The notes under the pieces are model-generated. The model saw nothing but the letters and a program-made list of their open reading frames with translations. It did no database searches and was not told where the DNA came from. The translations under genes were made by a program, and so were the position numbers. Shown piece after piece: positions 1 to 29,762 of a stretch of DNA of 39,790 nt (positions are counted from its first letter, which is position 1; each line of letters starts with the position of its first letter). The DNA comes from a virus. Its lineage: Duplodnaviria > Caudoviricetes. The DNA is taken from IMG/VR virus record IMGVR_UViG_3300038809_000039, positions 1 to 39,790 of that record. The stretch is one strand, 5' to 3'.

Positions 1-1812
1 ATGGCTACTACTTCTGCACAAATTCAACAGCTGTACGTTGCTTACCTGGGCCGCGCTGCCGACAAAGCGGGCCTGGATTACTGGTTGAACGCGACGAATG
101 GCACCAGCACAACTCCAGCGACCCTGACCCTGGACGATCTGCGTACCAACTTCACCACTCAGCAAACTGAGTACACCTCTGTTTACGGCGGTCTGACCCG
201 CGAAGAAACAGTAGTTAAGATCTACAACAACCTGTTCGGTCGTGCTCCGGATGCTGATGGCCTGACCTACTGGACAACCGGTGGCGGTGCTTCGGTTTCC
301 ACCGATCTACTGCTGACCTCGTTCATCAACGGTGCAAGCGCAGACGACTCCAAAGTCGTGACTAACAAGGTTCTGGTTGCTGAGGTTTACACCTCAGCTG
401 CGGGTACTAACTTCGCAAGCGCCGATGCTAAGTCGGTCATCACTGGCGTAACCAGCGACTACAGCACTGTAGGCACCGCCTTGGAAAAACTGACTGACGG
501 CTCTCTGGGTGGCATCGCTATCCCTGCTGCAGTAGCAAATCTGAAAGCTGCTGCTGCTGCTGACGGTGCGTTCACCAGCTACGAGTCGACCAATACCACG
601 ACGCTGAAAGATCTGAGCACCAAGCTGGCCGCTCTGACTAAAGCTGATGCGAACCTGACCGATACCACTGCTACCACCGCTAACACCTACGGCGATGCCA
701 ACACTTCGGTTGACAATCAGTTGGACGCAGCTCGCGCAGAGCTGGGTGGCGATACCAAGGCACTGACCACCACCGCTACTACCGCTGATGCCACGTTGGC
801 AGCTGCTCGCACCAGCCTGCTGACCGACAGCACCTACGGTGTTGGCGCTACCGACAAGATCAAGGCGTACACCGACGCACAAGCTGCAGTTAAAGCTGCT
901 CCAGTTGCGCCGACTCTGGCCGAGAAGACTGTTGCCATCGATACCTTGACCTCGATCGCTACTGCCAATGCTACCGAGTTCGCTAAAGCACTGACTGCTG
1001 CCGGTTTGACCGCTTCGTCTCCTGCAGACGCAGCGGCCGATGCTAACGCTCTGTACAACAAGCTGGCTGACGGTGCTACTACCGATACCGTTTCCGCTAA
1101 CGTTGCCACTGAGTTCGGTTCCGTATCGGCCTACGCTTCTGTCAAAACCACTGTCGACAAAGCCCACGCTATCGACAAGGCTGCAGATGCTCTGACCGTA
1201 GCTGAAGACGCACTGGACTTCGGTACAGGTAATGCCTGGATCAGCGCTTACAACGCCGACGTGACTGCTAACTCCAAGCTGGCCTCGTCCAAAGCTCTGG
1301 ATGCTCTCGAAGCTTCCTACAAGACTGTTGTCGACGGCCACACTGCTGTAGAAACTTCTGTTTCTACTGCTAACGGCAAGCTGGACGCTACCGACGCTCT
1401 GGACACCGCAGGTGCCAACCTGACCGTCCAGGCCGCTGCTGATGATACCAAGGCTGAAGTGTTCTACTTCGCTAACAACAAGGTTACCGGTGCTGATGGC
1501 GCTCTGACCCTGGCTGCTGGTGGCGACTCTCTGTACATCGGTGAAGGCTACACTCAGAACAAGGCTGCTACTCTGGGCGATACCGGCATCGTTGGCGGTG
1601 ACAACAACTCCAAAGAAGTATTCTTCTTCAAAGGCACTGACGGTGTTGTTAAAGCCGTAATCGAAACTGGCGTTGCAAGCAGCCTGGCTGTTACCAACAC
1701 TGCTTCGTTGAACACTGCTGCAGCTGACGGCGTGTCGGTCATTACCCTGACTGGCGTTACCGATCTGGCTAAGGTTGGCTTCGACGCTGGTGTTATCAGC
1801 GTTCACGCTTAA
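1..1812 (+). CDS. Host S-layer-like / DUF4214-domain surface protein, probably type I secreted
   Basis: RsaA-like N-terminus QIQQLYVAYLGRAADKAGLDYW and a second copy IYNNLFGRAPDADGLTYW. Ala/Thr-rich body with no Cys and no signal peptide. C-terminus VITLTGV...ISVHA resembles a T1SS substrate. Codon usage is strongly biased (gct/acc/ctg), unlike the phage genes. Confidence 0.8.
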   Translation: MATTSAQIQQLYVAYLGRAADKAGLDYWLNATNGTSTTPATLTLDDLRTNFTTQQTEYTSVYGGLTREETVVKIYNNLFGRAPDADGLTYWTTGGGASVSTDLLLTSFINGASADDSKVVTNKVLVAEVYTSAAGTNFASADAKSVITGVTSDYSTVGTALEKLTDGSLGGIAIPAAVANLKAAAAADGAFTSYESTNTTTLKDLSTKLAALTKADANLTDTTATTANTYGDANTSVDNQLDAARAELGGDTKALTTTATTADATLAAARTSLLTDSTYGVGATDKIKAYTDAQAAVKAAPVAPTLAEKTVAIDTLTSIATANATEFAKALTAAGLTASSPADAAADANALYNKLADGATTDTVSANVATEFGSVSAYASVKTTVDKAHAIDKAADALTVAEDALDFGTGNAWISAYNADVTANSKLASSKALDALEASYKTVVDGHTAVETSVSTANGKLDATDALDTAGANLTVQAAADDTKAEVFYFANNKVTGADGALTLAAGGDSLYIGEGYTQNKAATLGDTGIVGGDNNSKEVFFFKGTDGVVKAVIETGVASSLAVTNTASLNTAAADGVSVITLTGVTDLAKVGFDAGVISVHA

Positions 1813-3934: not shown

Positions 3935-4285
3935 TCAGGTCCAGTCGGCGCGCTGGTACACCTCTGATGAATGGAAGACACGCTCAGGGACAGGTGGAAC
4001 CGCCCTTTGTATTCCCGTTTTGGCGTAACCATTCGCCTCCATCACTGCGCAAACCAGCGCTCCGATCGACCTTTTAAGTGATGAGCGCTTTACGTTTGGT
4101 GTCGTAGCTAGAATTGCCTCAGCGCAGAATTTAGCAATGCCTGCAACAGCCGGAAGCTCAAGCGCATCGGTTACGACTCTCATGCTCGTGAACGACTCCT
4201 CCGAATTTACAAAGTCTATGAAATTGAACGCGTGGGCGTTAAGTTCATTGAACTGAGATGTATGGGTCTTAGCGAAGGACTCCAT
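3935..4285 (-). CDS. Hypothetical moron protein (start uncertain, 4285 or 4309)
   Basis: Lower-GC ORF inserted between the tail-fibre accessory gene and DUF1353, with its own terminator. Confidence 0.6.
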   Translation of the reverse strand: MESFAKTHTSQFNELNAHAFNFIDFVNSEESFTSMRVVTDALELPAVAGIAKFCAEAILATTPNVKRSSLKRSIGALVCAVMEANGYAKTGIQRAVPPVPERVFHSSEVYQRADWT

Positions 4286-4372
4286 GTCCGCAGGGCGAAA
4301 AGGTGGCATGCGTGGTACCGGATGTTGTCTGGGCGACCACGATATTATCCGCAGGGCTATTTTGCAATTTGC

Positions 4373-23765: not shown

Positions 23766-24036
23766 AGTCTTTCCTCGCCTTTTGTGCTTTCTGCTCGCTG
23801 ACCTTGAGCCGCTTATCCAGATCGATTTGGTAAGCCTTATTGCGCTCTATCTCGGCGCGAAGCGTGGTGATTGTTGCCTGGCTTTCGACGTTGGCAGCGA
23901 GCGCATCGGCCTTCGCCTTTGTCTCGATGGCTACCTCACCGCGCAGCGCGATCACTCGGTCCTGCTGGATGCCAACCAGAAGCGCGCCGATCAAGAAGAT
24001 GATGATGGCAAGTGCGATTGCTTTAAGTGTGGTCAT
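23641..24036 (-). CDS. Inner-membrane spanin (Rz/LysB-like)
   Basis: N-terminal TM, coiled coil and C-terminal VRKWADQPLPD. Confidence 0.82.
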   Translation of the reverse strand: MTTLKAIALAIIIFLIGALLVGIQQDRVIALRGEVAIETKAKADALAANVESQATITTLRAEIERNKAYQIDLDKRLKVSEQKAQKARKDFEDLKRKSPAVRKWADQPLPDGLRGKPASTGKDKNGKARTP

Positions 24037-24359
24037 GCTGAGTCCGCCTTGCGACCGAGGAACTTGATGATCAGCTCACGAATGGCAGTCACACCGATGA
24101 ATCCGATGGTGCCGCCGGCCGCTACAGAAAGGCTGGACGGCCAGGCCATCCACTCGATAACGCTGCTTGCAGACAGGCTGAGGGCGCCGCAGATCAGCGC
24201 TTCAAGCACGACTCGCCACTTGTTCGCTTCCTTGCCTTCGTACAGCACGCGAAGCAGAGATATGGTTGCGGCCATGATCGCTCCTTGCCAGAGCGGGTTC
24301 GAAAGGACAAGCCAGACCTGCGCCCAGAAGTCAGGTGATTTTTCAGGCATCGTCGACAT
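24033..24359 (-). CDS. Lambda-family holin with two possible starts (24359, 24350)
   Basis: MPEKSPDFW, LEALICGAL, GGTIGFIGV and a basic C-terminus; three TM segments. Confidence 0.9.
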   Translation of the reverse strand: MSTMPEKSPDFWAQVWLVLSNPLWQGAIMAATISLLRVLYEGKEANKWRVVLEALICGALSLSASSVIEWMAWPSSLSVAAGGTIGFIGVTAIRELIIKFLGRKADSA

Positions 24360-24441
24360 CCGACAGTCCACCCTTTCGGGATCGGAAATGAATCAGCCCC
24401 GCAGCACTCCCAGCTCGGAGCGATGGGTGTGGCGGGGCTGA
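24359..24441 (-). promoter_or_regulatory. Structured holin translation-initiation region
   Basis: Hairpin TCAGCCCCGC/GCGGGGCTGA (24441-24393), then TCCGAT-CCC-GAAA-GGG...GTCGGA, which encloses the RBS and the A of the first ATG. Confidence 0.5.
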
Positions 24442-24552
24442 AAACGAGAACGCCCCGGCAAATGCCGAGGCTCCTATAAATATGGTTCTTTGATACCGCC
24501 GCTAACCGTAGGATGGCCTAGAACGGTCCCGCGATCGAAAGGAAGCATCACA

Positions 24553-24786
24553 ATGCACATGACCAACCGCAGCGCAGTTGCTCGCGCGCGCTCGATGATC
24601 GAAGTGATACGTCGCAGCCTGGTGCCAGGACTGGCAGAACGAAACAAAGTGATGGCTGACGGTTATATAGAATCCCTCTTCGACTGCGGCCTCATTGAGC
24701 GCACACAGTACGAAGACCTGAAAGCCGAAGCTGAGCTCGCATTAACCGCTTGGAGCCTTGATCCACCTCATGAAAAGCATCTTTAA
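24553..24786 (+). CDS. Antisense moron, hypothetical protein
   Basis: AAGGAAG RBS; ADGYIESLFDCGLI...YEDL helical pattern. Confidence 0.6.
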   Translation: MHMTNRSAVARARSMIEVIRRSLVPGLAERNKVMADGYIESLFDCGLIERTQYEDLKAEAELALTAWSLDPPHEKHL

Positions 24787-24881
24787 ATACAACACAGATG
24801 TAGAACCACTGGAGGACTCGCTCGGAATTTTTTGCCGTCGCGCCAATCAGTTATGGTGACCAATGCCAAGGAGACGGGATC

Positions 24882-25106
24882 ATGGCGCAGGATAAGCACT
24901 ATCGAATCGACTACCTAGTGGATGGCTCTTACAAGACCTTCTACATCCGATCCGCGAAGATGGATAACGCAGAGGCTTGGCATTGGGCGACCGTAGATGC
25001 GGGGTTTGGCGAAATACCAAAGTACCGGAGCGACCCGATCAACAGGCTAAGCCGGCCAAAGGCTGAACGCCTCGGCATAACAAATGTTGAGTGGGCCGAG
25101 GCTTGA
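24882..25106 (+). CDS. Antisense moron, small Pseudomonas-type protein (DUF6555-like)
   Basis: AAGGAG RBS; YRIDY...FYIRS..MDNAEAWHWA..DAG...AERLGITNVEW. Confidence 0.7.
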   Translation: MAQDKHYRIDYLVDGSYKTFYIRSAKMDNAEAWHWATVDAGFGEIPKYRSDPINRLSRPKAERLGITNVEWAEA

Positions 25107-25107
25107 A

Positions 25108-25255
25108 GTTGATGTCTCTCCATCAGTCCGCCGATGCCGCCCGTATTGCACACTTGGAGTCGGGCCCATCAGCTGCCGGTGTTCTTTCGAAACGCGTGAC
25201 TGACCGGCTATACCGCGTCCAGGCCCTCCCCGTAGGGCCACCCCGGCTATGGTCT
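25108..25255 (-). ncRNA. Candidate structured ncRNA with H-type pseudoknot
   Basis: Consecutive helices: GGCCCT/AGGGCC; pseudoknot GACGCG/CGCGTT crossing GCCGGT/ACCGGC; GCTGATG/CATCGGC enclosing GCCCG/CGGGC; TGATG-GAGAGA-CATCA. Confidence 0.6.
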
Positions 25256-25268
25256 CACCCAACAAAAC

Positions 25269-25297
25269 AAAAAACCCCGGCACTAGGCCGGGGCTTT
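25269..25297 (-). terminator. Terminator after membrane moron 25314-25682
   Basis: AAAAAACCCCGGC-actag-GCCGGGG. Confidence 0.7.
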
Positions 25298-25313
25298 AAA
25301 CATCTCGATAGCT

Positions 25314-25682
25314 TCAGTCTGCGGTAGCTCGGCTATTACGCCAGAAGAGATACGCCAGACCCACTGGAGCCACGAAAATTGCCATGGTCCAGCAGAGCGT
25401 CATGGTGATCGCCTTCACGAAAAGCATCACCACTGCGTTAACGAAAAACACGTTGTTGCCCATCACGTAGCCGACGACGCTTTCGTAGACGAAGCGCGAG
25501 TACGGATAAAGCAGCGTGTTTACTACTGCGTAAAAAACCAGTCCTGGCTTGATGGATTGTCCGCCGTGAGCGCTACCCACCACCCAAAAAATAAGCGCGG
25601 AGAACGCAGCTCCGAACAAGAACTGCCGAATGTAGTAGCTGCGACTAAGTCCACCGAAAGACTTGGCGAAAAATGACTGCAT
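25314..25682 (-). CDS. Membrane protein moron (about 3 TM)
   Basis: Hydrophobic segments, YYIRQFLFG and NTLLYPYSRFVYES motifs, GAGGG RBS and own terminator. Confidence 0.75.
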   Translation of the reverse strand: MQSFFAKSFGGLSRSYYIRQFLFGAAFSALIFWVVGSAHGGQSIKPGLVFYAVVNTLLYPYSRFVYESVVGYVMGNNVFFVNAVVMLFVKAITMTLCWTMAIFVAPVGLAYLFWRNSRATAD

Positions 25683-25786
25683 AAGATCCCTCTTAAAGGC
25701 TTGATTTAGAGGGGCGCAAACATATCAGCAAGCTCGGTTACGATCCATATCTAAGCCAGAAACCGCGCCTAAGGTCGAAGTCACGT

Positions 25787-25872
25787 TGGCGGAAGGTGAA
25801 AGAGTCGAACCCTTACCGATACCGATAGCTCCGGGTTCAAACCGGATTGCCCGCCACTGGGCGCCACCATCC
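25787..25872 (-). tRNA. Non-canonical tRNA-Ser(UGA)-like gene with 8/4 acceptor/T fold (allo-tRNA-like)
   Basis: GGATGGTG GC GCCC-AGTGGC-GGGC AA TCCGG-TT TGA AC-CCGGA GC TATCG-GTAT-CGGTA AGGG-TTCGACT-CTTT CACCTTCC G CCA. Encoded CCA, G73 discriminator and long variable arm. Confidence 0.8.
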
Positions 25873-25880
25873 AGAAACAC

Positions 25881-25906
25881 AAAGCCCCGCATTTGGCGGG
25901 GCTTTT
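25881..25906. terminator. Bidirectional terminator hairpin just upstream of the tRNA-like gene
   Basis: AAAGCCCCGC-atttg-GCGGGGCTTTT. Confidence 0.7.
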
Positions 25907-25919
25907 CGTCGATAACTTC

Positions 25920-26222
25920 TCAACCGTGTTGCAAAAAAGGGTTGTTCTTCAAAATCTCACGATTGCGGACTCGATCAAAATATTCATAACCATCCCACGT
26001 AACTCGCACCACAACTGCTTCATCGGAATCCTTCATCTCTATGTATCCAGCATCGGCCAGCAATCGAATATGCCCATCGATCAGGTAGGCCGGCCACACG
26101 TCAAGACGTTCTGGCGGTAGGTTGTTGAATAACTCATTGGCCGACATATTCAATTCCCACGCCGCAGTTGAAATCACGCAGTGGTGAAGGATTGATGCAA
26201 GCAGGTCAGGGCTTCGTTCCAT
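25920..26222 (-). CDS. DUF2513-like winged-helix moron protein
   Basis: MERSPDLLASIL...GHIRLLADAGYIE...RVTWDGYEYFD. GAGG RBS at the reassigned start 26222. Confidence 0.7.
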   Translation of the reverse strand: MERSPDLLASILHHCVISTAAWELNMSANELFNNLPPERLDVWPAYLIDGHIRLLADAGYIEMKDSDEAVVVRVTWDGYEYFDRVRNREILKNNPFLQHG

Positions 26223-26280
26223 ATTTTCCTCATCAGCGCCGTATGCGCTTAAGGATGGTATATGAACGAGGCAAGAAGCC

Positions 26281-26304
26281 AAAACCCCAGCGCTTGGCTG
26301 GGGT
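26281..26304 (-). terminator. Probable tR'-like terminator downstream of Q
   Basis: Minus strand ACCCCAGC-caagc-GCTGGGGT-TTT, about 80 bp after the Q stop. Confidence 0.55.
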
Positions 26305-26383
26305 CTGATTGTGTGGGTGTCGCGCTGAATGCGTTGAACACCGTGCCATGAAAACAGGTGTTTATCCGCCCGCATAGAACTTT

Positions 26384-26770
26384 TTAAGCAGCTTCGCGAA
26401 AAGACTCCAAAGCGGAATCTACCCAGGCCACGCCCTGCTTGATGATCTCCCTCGCCTTGCGCTCGGCCATCCCATACTTCTCGCCTATCCGCGCCGATGT
26501 CCATTTTGACCCGTAGTACAGCCAGACAAAATCCCCCATCTGCTGGTTGCGCTTGATCAGGCGAGCAATGATCGAGTCGACGACCATTGCAGCGTCATCG
26601 GTGATGACATAGCTCAGTTGATCGTCGCAGGGGTTGGCCTGGGCGATCACCGACGCGAGCTGTGACACATAGCGCGGCACGCCCATCCCTGACATCCGCC
26701 AACTGCCCCACTGCTCCAACAGATATTCGGTATCGCCCAGCGGCTTGTCGGTGTAGGTACGTTTTTTCAT
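26384..26770 (-). CDS. Q: Late antiterminator Q
   Basis: LLEQWGSWR, ITDDAAMVVD, C-terminal HTH and GVAWVD. Sits before the late operon. Confidence 0.88.
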   Translation of the reverse strand: MKKRTYTDKPLGDTEYLLEQWGSWRMSGMGVPRYVSQLASVIAQANPCDDQLSYVITDDAAMVVDSIIARLIKRNQQMGDFVWLYYGSKWTSARIGEKYGMAERKAREIIKQGVAWVDSALESFREAA

Positions 26771-27054
26771 GCCGCTTTCCTCGGATCTGGTTCGTTGTTC
26801 AGGCCAAGCAGATCGCGAAGCATCTTGTCGGCGTGTTTGTTTTTGGCGTTGCCCTCAAGTACCCACGCTTTCGCGTAGGCCTCGAACCCGATATGGCCGA
26901 GTGTGCCATGCCAGTCCGCAACGATATCCATCAGAGCCGCCGAGGCGATTCGCCCGTTGGTTTGCTCCAGCAGCATCCGGTTACCCATCTTGAGAAACTT
27001 GCACTCGACCTGGGTCAAGCTTTTGCGCGGCAGTGCCGCAGTCACGTTATTCAT
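26767..27054 (-). CDS. Hypothetical phage protein
   Basis: MNNVTAALPRK start with AGGAG RBS; stop overlaps the Q start. Confidence 0.7.
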   Translation of the reverse strand: MNNVTAALPRKSLTQVECKFLKMGNRMLLEQTNGRIASAALMDIVADWHGTLGHIGFEAYAKAWVLEGNAKNKHADKMLRDLLGLNNEPDPRKAA

Positions 27055-28393
27055 TGCTGTCTCCTGGCTGAGCGGAGGAGCCTTTTGCAATTTGGCTCCT
27101 CCCTTGGGATGGAAGTTGATTCGCTCTGTAAGCCACGGATTCACTGACCTGCGCTGTCTTAGTCGTGGTTTCCTGTCCCGCATATGTCCCACCGTGAAGC
27201 AGGGCAAAACCTTGGCTGTCGAGGTGCTGATGCCATGCCTCCAGCGCCTTGCGCTTCATGCCTTCGGCGGTGGTGTGGATGTAGGTCGCATCTAGGTCTT
27301 TCATGGCATGGTTGAGCAGCATCTCGCCGACCATGTAATCGACGCCCAGATCAGCCCACGCGGTGCGGGCGACCTTGCGCAGGTCATGGCTCGACCACTC
27401 GCCCTTGCTCACGCTGGTGAACACCGTGCACGCCTTGCTGGGGCTCAATGCCGACCCGTTGCTGCCGGGAAACAGGAACGGGCCGCTGTAGCCGTTTGCG
27501 AGCTGTCGAGCCCGGTAACGCTGTAGGAGCGCGCAGGCCTGTTCGGTCAGCGGCAGGGTGTGCTCGGCCTTGGTCTTCGTGTCGCTGGCGGGGATGAACC
27601 ACTGGCGGGTCACGAGGTTGAGGTTCTTCCAGCGGGCCAGCCGGGTTTCCCCCAACCGTGTGCCGTGACAGAGCATCATCAGCGGCAGCATGGCCTGCAC
27701 CGGCACGGCGTCGAGGTGCTCAGCGAACTTCTGTAGGAGTGGGGGCAGGTCATCACCGCGCAACCGCGCCGCCTTGGGCCTGATCCGTGTCCGGACGAAG
27801 TCGGTGAACTTGAGATCCGCCATCGGGCTGACATCGATCAGCTTCAGCCGAGCGGCTTGCCGAAACGAGGCCGCCAGCACGCCGTAAACCGAGCGCACGA
27901 ACGACAGCGCGTATTTCTCCTGCAGGGGCCACATCAGCAAGCGATCAAGCGAGGACCGATTGAGGCTGGCCAACTCCAGATCGTCAAGGCGTGGCACCAG
28001 GTGACAGCGCAGCGCCGACTGCGCGCTGGCCTTGCGTTTGGCCGACAAGCCACGATCGCGCGTCATCCGGTCGGTGTACCAGGTCAGCACGTCGCCGACG
28101 GTGCGCCAGCTGGTGGTGGTCGACGCCGCGGTCGAGTCCACGGCTCGGCGCGCGAGGATGTCCGGCAGCGTGGCCTGCATCAGCTTGGCGTTGATCCCAG
28201 GATAACTTCCGGCCTTGCCCCACTTGCCGGCCACCACGACATGCCAAACGCCCTTGGCGCGGTCGACGGTCGAATAGCGGAAGCGCAGCTGCGGATAGCG
28301 AGGATCGCGCAGCTGACGGGCGTTGCCGCTCGCCTGCTTGCGGATCTCGGCGTCGGTGATGGTGACGTGAACGGTCAAGCCTTGGTTATTCAT
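27047..28393 (-). CDS. Second tyrosine recombinase, in the replication/nin region
   Basis: Complete catalytic set: GTRLGE (R), TKTK (K), HDLRK (HxxR), LLNH (H), ATY (Y). Start MNNQGL overlaps the dnaB stop. Confidence 0.88.
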   Translation of the reverse strand: MNNQGLTVHVTITDAEIRKQASGNARQLRDPRYPQLRFRYSTVDRAKGVWHVVVAGKWGKAGSYPGINAKLMQATLPDILARRAVDSTAASTTTSWRTVGDVLTWYTDRMTRDRGLSAKRKASAQSALRCHLVPRLDDLELASLNRSSLDRLLMWPLQEKYALSFVRSVYGVLAASFRQAARLKLIDVSPMADLKFTDFVRTRIRPKAARLRGDDLPPLLQKFAEHLDAVPVQAMLPLMMLCHGTRLGETRLARWKNLNLVTRQWFIPASDTKTKAEHTLPLTEQACALLQRYRARQLANGYSGPFLFPGSNGSALSPSKACTVFTSVSKGEWSSHDLRKVARTAWADLGVDYMVGEMLLNHAMKDLDATYIHTTAEGMKRKALEAWHQHLDSQGFALLHGGTYAGQETTTKTAQVSESVAYRANQLPSQGRSQIAKGSSAQPGDSNE

Positions 28394-29762
28394 CGCCAGA
28401 CCTCCCTCGATAACCGCGCGCCGCAAACTGACGACCGATCTCGACGTCCTCATCAGTGGCGTAGGCATTACCGGCGAAATCGACGAACCGGCCGTACTCC
28501 CCCTGCTGCTGAACCACGCAGCTGCCAACTTTCGCATGACGGCATTTGGGCATGATTATTTCAGTGACGCCGTTCTGCCCCTCCTCGCTGTCCGGATCGC
28601 GATGAACCAGCAGGATGCAGCTGGCGTCTGCTTCGATCTCTCCTGAATCGCGCAGGTCGCTGGCTTGCGGCCTTTTCCCGACGCGCTTGGTCGAGTCGCG
28701 GTTGAGCTGCGCGAGTTCGAGCACTGGAATATCCATTTCCTTGGCCAGCCTCAGCAGCGCCTTGCTTATCGCTCCGACCTCCTCGCTCCGGCTGCGTCCT
28801 TTGCGCTCTGACTGAATCAGCCCCAAGTAATCCACCACAATCCCCGCCAGACCGTGTTCCCTTTGGCATTGCCGGGCGGTGGCCCGAATTGTCGCGGGAG
28901 TTTGAACGGGGTCATCGCAGACATACAGCGGCGCCTCATGTGCCAGCGCCACGGCGTTGACCATGTTCCCCCAGTCGGTGTTGGTCAGCTTATCGGGGTT
29001 GTCCAGTCGACGCAGATCCACACCACCGATGGATGCGATGGCGCGCAGCCCCAACTCCTCGCCCGGCATTTCGATGGAAAACACCAGCCAAGGCTTTCTG
29101 GCAACCCTGGCGTTGTGTTGGGCGATCTGCAAAGCCAATGTGGTTTTACCGCTGCCGGGCAGACCAGCGATGACCGTTATTTTTTTCGGGCGTAAGCCTT
29201 GAATCAGCTCGTCAAGCTTTACAAGGCTGGTAGTTGGCCAGGACGGCGCGCGCCCTTTGTGCTTGTCATCGACGGTTTCAGCGGCCTGCCCCATCAAGTG
29301 ATCAAGCCTCTGGTACTTCGGCGCATCGCTTTCGAGATCACGCAGGTCAGCCGTTGCCTGCTGCGCCATGGCTATCACCTGCGCAACGGGCAGATCGTCA
29401 TTGACTGTATCGCGGATGATGTCAGCGGCATCCAGCACACGGCGCAGGGCGGCACGCTCCAGCACGACCCGAGCATAGGCTCGCCAGTTCGCTACGCTGG
29501 CCACGTTCTTGGCGATCTCGGCGGCATAACCCAGCAAGCTGTCACCGCTCGGAAGAGCTGGCCGATGGATGCCGACCGTCACCACGTCAATGGGTTGCCC
29601 AGAGTTATGCGTATCGATGATCGCTTCATACAGCGCGGCGTTTGCTTCTGCGTAGAAATCTCCAGTGTTCAGCTTGCTGGTGATTTCGTCCAACAGATCC
29701 GGGGCGTGCAGCAATGCGCCCAGTACGCCGTGCTCTGCCTCGATGCTGTAGAGCTCCCTCAT
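28386..29762 (-). CDS. dnaB: Replicative DNA helicase, DnaB family
   Basis: SIEAEHGVLG, AGLPGSGKT, FSIEM, VVDYLGL, LAQLNR and SDLRDSGEIEADA. Start at 29762 (ATGA overlap). Confidence 0.93.
   Translation of the reverse strand: MRELYSIEAEHGVLGALLHAPDLLDEITSKLNTGDFYAEANAALYEAIIDTHNSGQPIDVVTVGIHRPALPSGDSLLGYAAEIAKNVASVANWRAYARVVLERAALRRVLDAADIIRDTVNDDLPVAQVIAMAQQATADLRDLESDAPKYQRLDHLMGQAAETVDDKHKGRAPSWPTTSLVKLDELIQGLRPKKITVIAGLPGSGKTTLALQIAQHNARVARKPWLVFSIEMPGEELGLRAIASIGGVDLRRLDNPDKLTNTDWGNMVNAVALAHEAPLYVCDDPVQTPATIRATARQCQREHGLAGIVVDYLGLIQSERKGRSRSEEVGAISKALLRLAKEMDIPVLELAQLNRDSTKRVGKRPQASDLRDSGEIEADASCILLVHRDPDSEEGQNGVTEIIMPKCRHAKVGSCVVQQQGEYGRFVDFAGNAYATDEDVEIGRQFAARGYRGRSGDE

What the first reader, a model, noticed from the sequence alone, without database searches (positions are those of the whole stretch)
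25108..25255. ~150-nt multi-helix RNA with an H-type pseudoknot in the late leader
Seen (minus strand): P1 GGCCCT/AGGGCC. Pseudoknot stems GACGCG (25219-25214)/CGCGTT (25196-25191) and GCCGGT (25208-25203)/ACCGGC (25180-25175), with a TTC-GAAA-GAA tetraloop in the linker. Long hairpin GCTGATG..GCCCG/CGGGC..CATCGGC and terminal TGATG-GAGAGA-CATCA. ATAGCCGG occurs twice, allowing alternative pairing. Most of the interval is paired and no credible ORF covers it. Inference: a functional phage ncRNA (ribozyme, nuclease-resistant element, protein sponge or antitoxin). I cannot assign it to a known family, so it is the best candidate for a novel element here.
Basis: partly seen in the sequence, partly recalled or inferred. 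Interest (0 to 1): 0.78.

Follow-up and report, generated by a model that had tools for sequence, protein, structure and literature searches.

The report
Orphan phage pseudoknot RNA, Proteo-phage-1
This gene-free stretch of a Pseudomonas-type prophage encodes a conserved, knotted RNA fold of about 140 bases that belongs to a catalogued but unexplained family (Proteo-phage-1), is longer than its database entry and has a relative in the laboratory phage P22; it is likely made late in infection and likely acts as a small regulatory RNA.

Summary
Real, but not a new family. Bases 25252-25171 (minus) match Rfam RF03044 Proteo-phage-1 at 75.1 bits (cut-off 42). Homologues confirm both pseudoknot stems. 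Where the two middle pairs of stem S2 were left free in a search, they were complementary in 15 of 15 cores that also had S1, against 1 of 12 without. Homologues also show that the RNA runs on past the Rfam model through a long stem and a terminal hairpin to 25110 (18 of 36 pairs change on both sides). In Pseudomonas the RNA lies between Q and the holin, just after a terminator or tRNA; distant relatives have unrelated neighbours; P22 carries one after rha. The long stem's loop shows an anti-Shine-Dalgarno-like word in 32 of 45 representatives (background 8%), with no partner found in cis. Best guess (0.4): a late, trans-acting small RNA. No expression or function data. This scan reported the family, and its extension, before on other DNA.

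The parts
25110..25252 (-). Whole RNA element (short form of the extended Proteo-phage-1 RNA, about 140 nt)
   Evidence: Rfam hit plus covarying 3' helices; ends inferred from conservation, not mapped
25171..25252 (-). Part covered by Rfam RF03044 Proteo-phage-1
   Evidence: 75.1 bits, cut-off 42, E 5.2e-12, model positions 1-82
25219..25246 (-). P1: CCGGG/CCUGG (25246-25242/25223-25219) with inner CCC-UACG-GGG hairpin (25237-25228)
   Evidence: 96% and 87% of cells paired in 61 homologues; MFE of the segment
25192..25218 (-). Pseudoknot stem S1, ACGCG/CGCGU (25218-25214/25196-25192)
   Evidence: 3 of 5 pairs change on both sides in 61 homologues
25175..25208 (-). Pseudoknot stem S2, GCCGG/CCGGC (25208-25204/25179-25175); invariant GU at 25200-25199 can pair with AC 25182-25181 (or with RC 25127-25126; unresolved)
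   Evidence: Seven S2 sequence types seen across relatives; free-position test 15/15 vs 1/12; GU pairing counts
25130..25173 (-). P4 long stem (25173-25167/25136-25130 and 25165-25161/25143-25139) with a 1x2 internal loop; outside the Rfam model
   Evidence: 8 of 12 pairs change on both sides in 15 short-form homologues; MFE
25156..25160 (-). ACUCC, anti-Shine-Dalgarno-like patch at the 5' side of the P4 loop
   Evidence: Such a 4-mer in 32 of 45 representatives, background 140 of 1702 windows
25110..25125 (-). P5 terminal hairpin UGAUG-GAGAGA-CAUCA
   Evidence: Four aligned pairs all with two-sided changes; a loop of this type in 48 of 61 homologues
25271..25297 (-). Intrinsic-terminator-like site ending about 20 nt before the RNA
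26348..26376 (-). Inferred late promoter pR'-like site (-35 26376-26371, -10 26353-26348)
   Evidence: Position and 17-nt spacing by comparison with homologous loci; missed by the consensus scan; inference
26281..26304 (-). Inferred first late terminator (tR'-like)
   Evidence: Hairpin plus T run at the same place in related loci; inference
26384..26770 (-). Antiterminator Q gene
   Evidence: PHROG 79, E 7e-31; Pfam PF06530, E 3e-10
25787..25872 (-). tRNA-Ser(UGA) in the same late leader
   Evidence: ARAGORN
24882..25106 (+). DUF6555 gene, convergent, stop codon 4 nt from the end of P5
   Evidence: Pfam PF20192, E 3e-37
24033..24371 (-). Holin gene, next same-strand gene with a family match, about 740 nt downstream
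   Evidence: PHROG 126, E 6e-34

Best explanation
The stretch is a member of the Proteo-phage-1 RNA family with a conserved pseudoknot, long stem and terminal hairpin, and it likely works as a free-standing small RNA that is predicted to be made only when the Q protein lets late transcription read through the terminators ahead of it. Shown: family membership, the fold (P1, S1/S2 pseudoknot, P4, P5), the strand, the position between Q and the holin directly after a terminator, and a conserved CU-rich patch in the P4 loop. Inferred: transcription from pR' by Q read-through (three terminator-like sites lie between pR' and the RNA here); release from the long late transcript by host nucleases, like the tRNA-Ser beside it; the compact knot as a stable scaffold; and the loop patch pairing with Shine-Dalgarno-type sequences of host or phage mRNAs to damp their translation late in infection. 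The last step is the weakest.
For: Rfam hit. Covariation and G-U/A-C asymmetry 42:7 show an RNA on this strand. Cassette layout: terminator-like site 18-35 nt upstream in 38 of 61 Pseudomonas-type loci against 13 of 458 control windows, a tRNA end in 6 more, and a terminator downstream in 26 of 59; Q-position gene upstream in 43 of 57 and lysis-cassette gene downstream in 45 of 58. In minimal loci the order is Q, promoter, terminator, RNA. Neighbours of distant relatives are unrelated (terminase, DNA polymerase, primase/helicase, recombinase, tail), three copies sit by a Mn-catalase gene, and here and in P22/BTP1 the next gene is on the other strand: this argues against control of one gene class. 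Loop patch in 32 of 45 representatives against 8% background, peaking 13-22 nt after S2. Loop-displayed anti-SD motifs are described for cuckoo sRNAs (PMC4615179, passages read), and the region after pR' is a described site of phage sRNA genes (PMC4104026, passages read).
Against: No transcript, end, target or phenotype is shown. The patch is only 4-5 nt, was noticed in the data before it was counted, and 13 of 45 representatives lack such a word; six degenerate representatives were dropped before that count. It pairs no better with its own downstream ribosome-binding site than with others (p = 0.32, n = 15; p = 0.31, n = 32), and a weak preference for its own L3 linker (p about 0.04, uncorrected, one of five tests) leaves an internal tertiary contact open. 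So many conserved core bases are more than an antisense RNA needs. No BTP1 ncRNA is annotated at the homologous place in a lysogen transcriptome (PMC7067206 Table S5, part 12 of 13 read), which fits late-only synthesis but equally fits no stable RNA.
Confidence: 0.4

Rival explanations
1. A general cis element of phage operons: the folded RNA acts on the transcript that carries it (a processing or decay boundary, or an elongation/termination modifier in the manner of HK022 put, recalled).
For: It lies inside operons on the transcribed strand, at gene junctions, in late, replication and recombination regions alike, often just before a terminator (26 of 59).
Against: In minimal loci it follows, not precedes, the first late terminator, where Q has already acted; the next gene is antisense here and in P22/BTP1; no cognate pairing to the downstream start region.
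Confidence: 0.25
2. A protein decoy: the pseudoknot binds a host defence or RNA-handling protein (for example as a mimic of a type III antitoxin) during the lytic cycle.
For: Compact H-type pseudoknot with invariant unpaired bases; phage-wide spread with no fixed neighbour; one genome has two tandem copies about 125 nt apart.
Against: Single copy in nearly all loci seen; no toxin family among the recurring neighbours sent to PHROGs apart from a HicAB-like pair upstream in 6 loci; no Rfam antitoxin match above cut-off.
Confidence: 0.15
3. An undescribed self-cleaving ribozyme that cuts the late transcript to free tRNAs or operon segments.
For: Conserved core bases around a pseudoknot; a tRNA ends 5-21 nt upstream in five loci where ARAGORN called one, and 64 nt upstream in a sixth.
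Against: No Rfam ribozyme match at E <= 10; the topology is a simple H-type knot followed by P4, not the nested double pseudoknot of HDV-like ribozymes; theta ribozymes lie within 5 nt of the tRNA end (PMC10879173, passages read), whereas most copies here follow terminators, not tRNAs.
Confidence: 0.12
4. A riboswitch-like sensor for the gene downstream.
For: Pocket-like internal loop in S2 and a terminator downstream in 26 of 59 loci.
Against: Downstream genes share no function; no riboswitch match at E <= 10; antisense next gene here.
Confidence: 0.05
5. A DNA-level site (late promoter, Q-binding element or ssDNA fold) rather than an RNA.
For: Position in the Q-to-holin interval; ATAGCCGG occurs twice in this copy.
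Against: G-U outnumbers A-C 42 to 7 in the helices; the repeat is not conserved (3 of 61); the pR'-like promoter lies elsewhere, next to Q.
Confidence: 0.03

Closest known systems
Proteo-phage-1 RNA (Rfam RF03044; typed 'Gene; sRNA'; that it comes from the Weinberg et al. 2017 set is recalled and from earlier scan notes: the main text of PMC5737381 does not name it and its supplement could not be read)
   Same: Full-length match to the 82-position model, same P1 and S1, same conserved GCCGG, AGU and AACACCGGCAGC segments.
   Different: The model stops at the first bases of P4; the RNA goes on for about 60 nt here and about 110 nt in the long form. The model's structure line has no S2 pair (a covariance model cannot hold a pseudoknot; I could not see the seed alignment). 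Relatives with other S2 sequences, P22's among them, fall below the cut-off.
Cuckoo (RSs0680-type) sRNAs of Alphaproteobacteria
   Same: A C/U-rich, anti-Shine-Dalgarno-like motif displayed in a hairpin loop on stems that vary freely (PMC4615179, passages).
   Different: Cuckoo RNAs are 2-4 simple hairpins with a 9-nt motif each; this RNA has one 4-5 nt patch, a pseudoknot and a phage setting; no Rfam match.
Prophage sRNAs at the pR' moron site of lambdoid phages (AsxR, AgvB; StxS)
   Same: Same genomic address, downstream of the Q-antiterminated late promoter (PMC4104026, passages; PMC7547250, search listing only).
   Different: The anti-sRNAs are 51-60 nt, Hfq-bound and have their own start sites; this RNA is about 140 nt, pseudoknotted and has no room for a promoter of its own between terminator and 5' end.
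Theta (HDV-like) ribozymes of phages
   Same: Pseudoknotted phage RNAs found just after tRNA genes (PMC10879173, passages).
   Different: Different topology; spacing to the tRNA end is variable and most copies follow terminators.

Membership tests
Proteo-phage-1 (RF03044) | Score at or above the gathering threshold over the full model | tested here: met
   75.1 bits vs 42, positions 1-82
Proteo-phage-1 (RF03044) | Consensus helices P1 (with inner hairpin) and S1 | tested here: met
Proteo-phage-1 (RF03044) | Occurrence in proteobacterial phage or prophage DNA (from the family name) | tested here: met
   Window is a provirus record with lambdoid gene order; 34 of 151 Pseudomonas genomes have a match
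Proteo-phage-1 (RF03044) | Expression as a discrete small RNA (Rfam type 'Gene; sRNA') | not testable with these tools
   No RNA holder listed for this stretch
HDV-like / theta ribozymes | Nested double pseudoknot (P1-P4, P1.1) | tested here: not met
   Covarying helices give S1/S2 knot then P4, P5 in series, with no P3 inside S1; no Rfam match at E <= 10
HDV-like / theta ribozymes | Cleavage site within 5 nt of a tRNA 3' end | tested here: not met
   Here the tRNA ends about 535 nt upstream; in homologues 5-64 nt where present
Self-cleaving ribozymes (any class) | Self-cleavage in vitro | not testable with these tools
   Needs a bench assay; whether the 2017 survey tested this motif is in a supplement I could not read
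Type III antitoxin RNAs (ToxI/TenpI/CptI; features recalled) | Tandem array of short pseudoknot repeats | tested here: not met
   One match in the window; a tandem pair in one distant genome only
Type III antitoxin RNAs (ToxI/TenpI/CptI; features recalled) | Toxin RNase gene directly downstream on the same strand | tested here: not met
   Downstream are an antisense DUF6555 gene and the holin
Cuckoo sRNAs | 2-4 adjacent hairpins each with loop CCUCCUCCC | tested here: not met
   One loop with ACUCC; no Rfam match
Exoribonuclease-resistant RNAs | Block of a 5'-3' exonuclease at a fixed position | not testable with these tools
   Needs a bench assay; no Rfam match

The most novel reading that the evidence does not exclude
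Proteo-phage-1 is the visible corner of a large class of phage RNAs, from P22 to uncultivated phages, with a shared pseudoknot-plus-stem core that does a biochemical job not yet described for phage RNA: either a rigid mimic of the 16S rRNA 3' end that captures ribosome-binding sites in bulk, or a new class of self-cleaving ribozyme.
Probability: 0.2. Interest if true: 0.8.

Novelty: new member of a known kind. Interest (0 to 1): 0.35.

Why it matters
The element itself is catalogued, so this copy is not a discovery. What is useful: the database model covers only about 60% of the RNA and misses relatives with other stem sequences, and one of those relatives lies in the model phage P22 (between rha and pid), in 154 phage records and in 1117 of 5426 complete E. 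coli genomes. That makes an orphan RNA family directly testable with standard phage genetics. Two exact-name searches of the paper library ('Proteo-phage-1'; 'RF03044') found no paper, and two topic searches found none on this RNA; subscription papers and the unreadable supplement of PMC5737381 may say more.

Tried and rejected
Single-sequence folding: no signal (z 0.11 minus, -0.10 plus). BLASTN of the element against phage records: only a 75% partial match in phiAH14a and terminator-length hits. Pattern scan of genome contigs: too loose, mostly chance matches; about 11 of the 32 viral hits were also chance and were dropped by eye, leaving 21. One search is void: my structure string was in the wrong columns (redone). 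In alignment A1 MAFFT shifts S2 by one column in a subgroup, so the 77% for S2 understates it. The 'up' row is void (an empty segment; redone). Two weak genome hits (L196 first hit, L197) were left out of the 61; L230 and L233-L235 were judged chance. Search for a cis partner of the P4 loop: upstream region p 0.25, core p 0.99, downstream p 0.84, own start region p 0.32 and 0.31, L3 p 0.04. Sequencing runs: no RNA holder listed; the one contig laid covers 25487-25700 only, not the element. P22 has no RF03044 match at the cut-off. No match in lambda 43500-48502, in E. coli Sakai with model R2 (no positive control in that call), or in Sakai and MG1655 by exact pattern. The tandem-copy variant was not found in 60 other genomes of its family. 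BTP1 STnc6030 is unrelated (antisense to the tailspike gene); the P22 pid paper (PMC8835761, passages) and the Minerva preprint (10.64898/2026.09.22.753630, passages) do not describe this RNA in the passages seen.

Full report
Setting. The window is a provirus record with lambdoid gene order: repressor, replication genes, an antiterminator Q (26384-26770; PHROG 79, Pfam PF06530), then a 2-kb interval, then holin, spanins, terminase, head and tail, all on the minus strand. The interval holds a DUF2513-like gene, a tRNA-Ser(UGA), a 122-aa gene without a family match, the element, and two opposite-strand genes. That the host is a Pseudomonas is inferred from the homologues.

The observation. The single sequence is not more stable than its shuffles (z 0.11), so the case rests on homologues. 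Rfam gives a full-length hit to Proteo-phage-1 (RF03044) at 25252-25171, 75.1 bits against a cut-off of 42; nothing else in 24300-26450 reaches its family cut-off, and no ribozyme or riboswitch model appears at E <= 10.

Homologues and fold. I gathered 60 Pseudomonas-type homologues: 21 of 32 viral pattern hits (the rest judged chance) and 39 of 41 RF03044 hits from 34 of 151 Pseudomonas genomes. With the window they make alignment A1 (61 rows); 15 short forms make A2. On A2 the structure P1, inner hairpin, S1, S2, P4, P5 pairs 93% of cells, 18 of 36 pairs change on both sides, 0 of 500 shuffles reach that, and sliding the partners drops pairing to 31-42%. P4 (8 of 12 pairs) and P5 lie outside the Rfam model. 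RNAalifold finds P1, S2, P4 and P5 unprompted. G-U cells outnumber A-C cells 42 to 7, which fixes the strand and favours RNA. A terminal hairpin loop of the P5 type is found in 48 of 61, either about 125-133 or about 172-186 nt from the start; the long form has extra helices inserted in P4 (by eye).

The pseudoknot. Within Pseudomonas S2 is conserved in sequence and says little. A phylum-wide search gave divergent members with GCGGG/CCCGC, and a pattern built on them returned 120 viral loci (68 distinct). For a fair test I left the two middle pairs of S2 free on the 3' side and forced them away from GG on the 5' side. Of 27 distinct cores, the 15 that also had an S1 of 4 bp or more were all complementary at both positions (AG/CU, CA/UG, UG/CA, AA/UU, GU/AC; about ten lineages by eye); of the 12 with a shorter S1 only one was. 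Those 12 include three true relatives with one broken S2 pair and one deletion variant (L366, L369, L374, L375), so the stem tolerates damage in some copies. An invariant GU after S2 can pair with AC in L3 (15 of 15) or with RC after P4 (14 of 15); unresolved.

Spread. Following an earlier scan note, I looked in P22: no Rfam hit at the cut-off, but models built only from Pseudomonas-type rows find it at 40178-40307, between rha and the opposite-strand pid region (E 0.009 with R1, about 1e-5 with R2; rough E-values). It has S2 GCCAG/CUGGC, a P4 loop with ACCUCC and nearly the same P5 as this window. That stretch is covered to 80% or more in 154 of 50,697 phage records and 1117 of 5426 E. coli genomes. 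It was not found in the lambda late control region, Sakai or MG1655.

Context. In the 61 loci a Q-position gene (PF06530, or PHROG 3373/3412, which are of unknown function but follow ninG) lies upstream in 43 of 57 with enough flank, and a lysis-cassette gene (two of the marker families are of unknown function) downstream in 45 of 58. A terminator-like hairpin ends 18-35 nt upstream in 38 of 61 (control 13 of 458), a tRNA in 6 more, and a terminator follows in 26 of 59. In minimal loci the order is Q stop, a sigma-70-like promoter, a short leader, terminator, RNA; in this window later insertions have moved the RNA 1.1 kb from Q, behind three terminator-like sites. So synthesis likely needs Q read-through (inference from lambdoid late control, established knowledge), or leakage from the moron upstream. 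Three copies lie by a Mn-catalase gene without the phage markers tested. For 29 divergent representatives I sent 61 of 97 flanking ORFs to PHROGs: neighbours include terminase, DNA polymerase, primase/helicase, recombination and tail genes. No single gene class is tied to the RNA.

The loop patch. Clustering 199 members gave 51 representatives; 6 degenerate ones were dropped. A 4-mer from the anti-Shine-Dalgarno sequence (ACCU, CCUC, CUCC, UCCU; motif recalled) lies 12-24 nt after S2 in 32 of 45, against 140 of 1702 background windows. The patch was seen before it was counted, and an earlier scan note had used the same description. It has no demonstrated partner in cis: own start region p 0.32 and 0.31, upstream 0.25, downstream 0.84, L3 0.04 uncorrected.

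Mechanism. Best reading (0.4): a late-made small RNA, cut from the Q-antiterminated transcript like the tRNA beside it, whose knot and long stem display a CU-rich loop that pairs with ribosome-binding sites in trans. Shown are the fold, strand, layout and loop conservation; synthesis, release and target are inferred. Rivals: a general cis processing or elongation element (0.25), a protein decoy (0.15), an undescribed ribozyme (0.12), a riboswitch (0.05), a DNA site (0.03). No expression data could be had. In a BTP1 lysogen transcriptome eight STnc60xx ncRNAs are listed and none lies between rha and pid (PMC7067206: section 16, passages and part 12 of 13 of Table S5's file).

Literature seen. 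PMC5737381: passages of the main text only, which does not name the motif; supplement unreadable, and it may hold the original structure, context and any tests. PMC8835761, PMC4104026, PMC4615179, PMC10879173 and the Minerva preprint: passages. PMC7547250: search listing only. Exact-name searches found nothing.

Verdict. A real RNA and a new member of a known orphan family; the scan has met the family 32 times and the extension at least once before. The added value is the corrected fold, a fair covariation test of the pseudoknot and a homologue in P22 that makes the function testable. Interest 0.35.

Noticed in passing
window 25787-25872 (-): tRNA-Ser(UGA) whose acceptor stem reads as 8 pairs (one U-U) and T stem as 4: the 8/4 type (read by eye). 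The same tRNA sits 13 nt before the RNA in L189.
   Followed up: partly
window 24348-24440 (-): The holin has two close starts (ATG 24359 and 24350, Met-Ser-Thr-Met), a small hairpin over the ribosome-binding region, and a strong hairpin at about 24439-24396 (segment z -3.3 with the terminator): looks like dual-start holin control (lambda S, recalled).
   Followed up: no
window 24452-25102: AGCCTCGGC occurs right after the RNA (25103-25095) and again at the terminator 24472-24464; in homologues that terminator follows the RNA directly, so the two opposite-strand genes look like an insertion at that terminator.
   Followed up: partly
window 24882-25106 (+): DUF6555 gene ends 4 nt from P5 and recurs convergent on the RNA in L022, L189 and L225; P22/BTP1 have pid in the same convergent arrangement. 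Its transcript could run antisense into the RNA.
   Followed up: no
window 27047-28537 (-): A second integrase-family (tyrosine recombinase) gene lies between the DnaB helicase and Q, in the nin position, and recurs there in related prophages.
   Followed up: no
L008:3205-3786 (-), L204:5139-5846 (-): PHROG 3373 and 3412 proteins (unknown function, no Pfam hit) occupy the Q position between ninG and a promoter-terminator in many Pseudomonas prophages: candidate unannotated late antiterminators.
   Followed up: partly
L193, L194, L195: Three copies of the RNA lie beside DUF892 and Mn-catalase genes with none of the phage markers tested within 5 kb: possibly domesticated copies in a stress-gene cluster.
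   Followed up: partly
L229/L231 (G256:C12:285359-285566, -): Two tandem, near-identical copies of a divergent form about 125 nt apart; not found in 60 related genomes.
   Followed up: partly
window 3935-4309 (-) and 1-1812 (+): A 124-aa gene without PHROG match inside the tail-fibre region, and a 603-aa plus-strand gene at the left end without PHROG match, probably host DNA beside the prophage.
   Followed up: no
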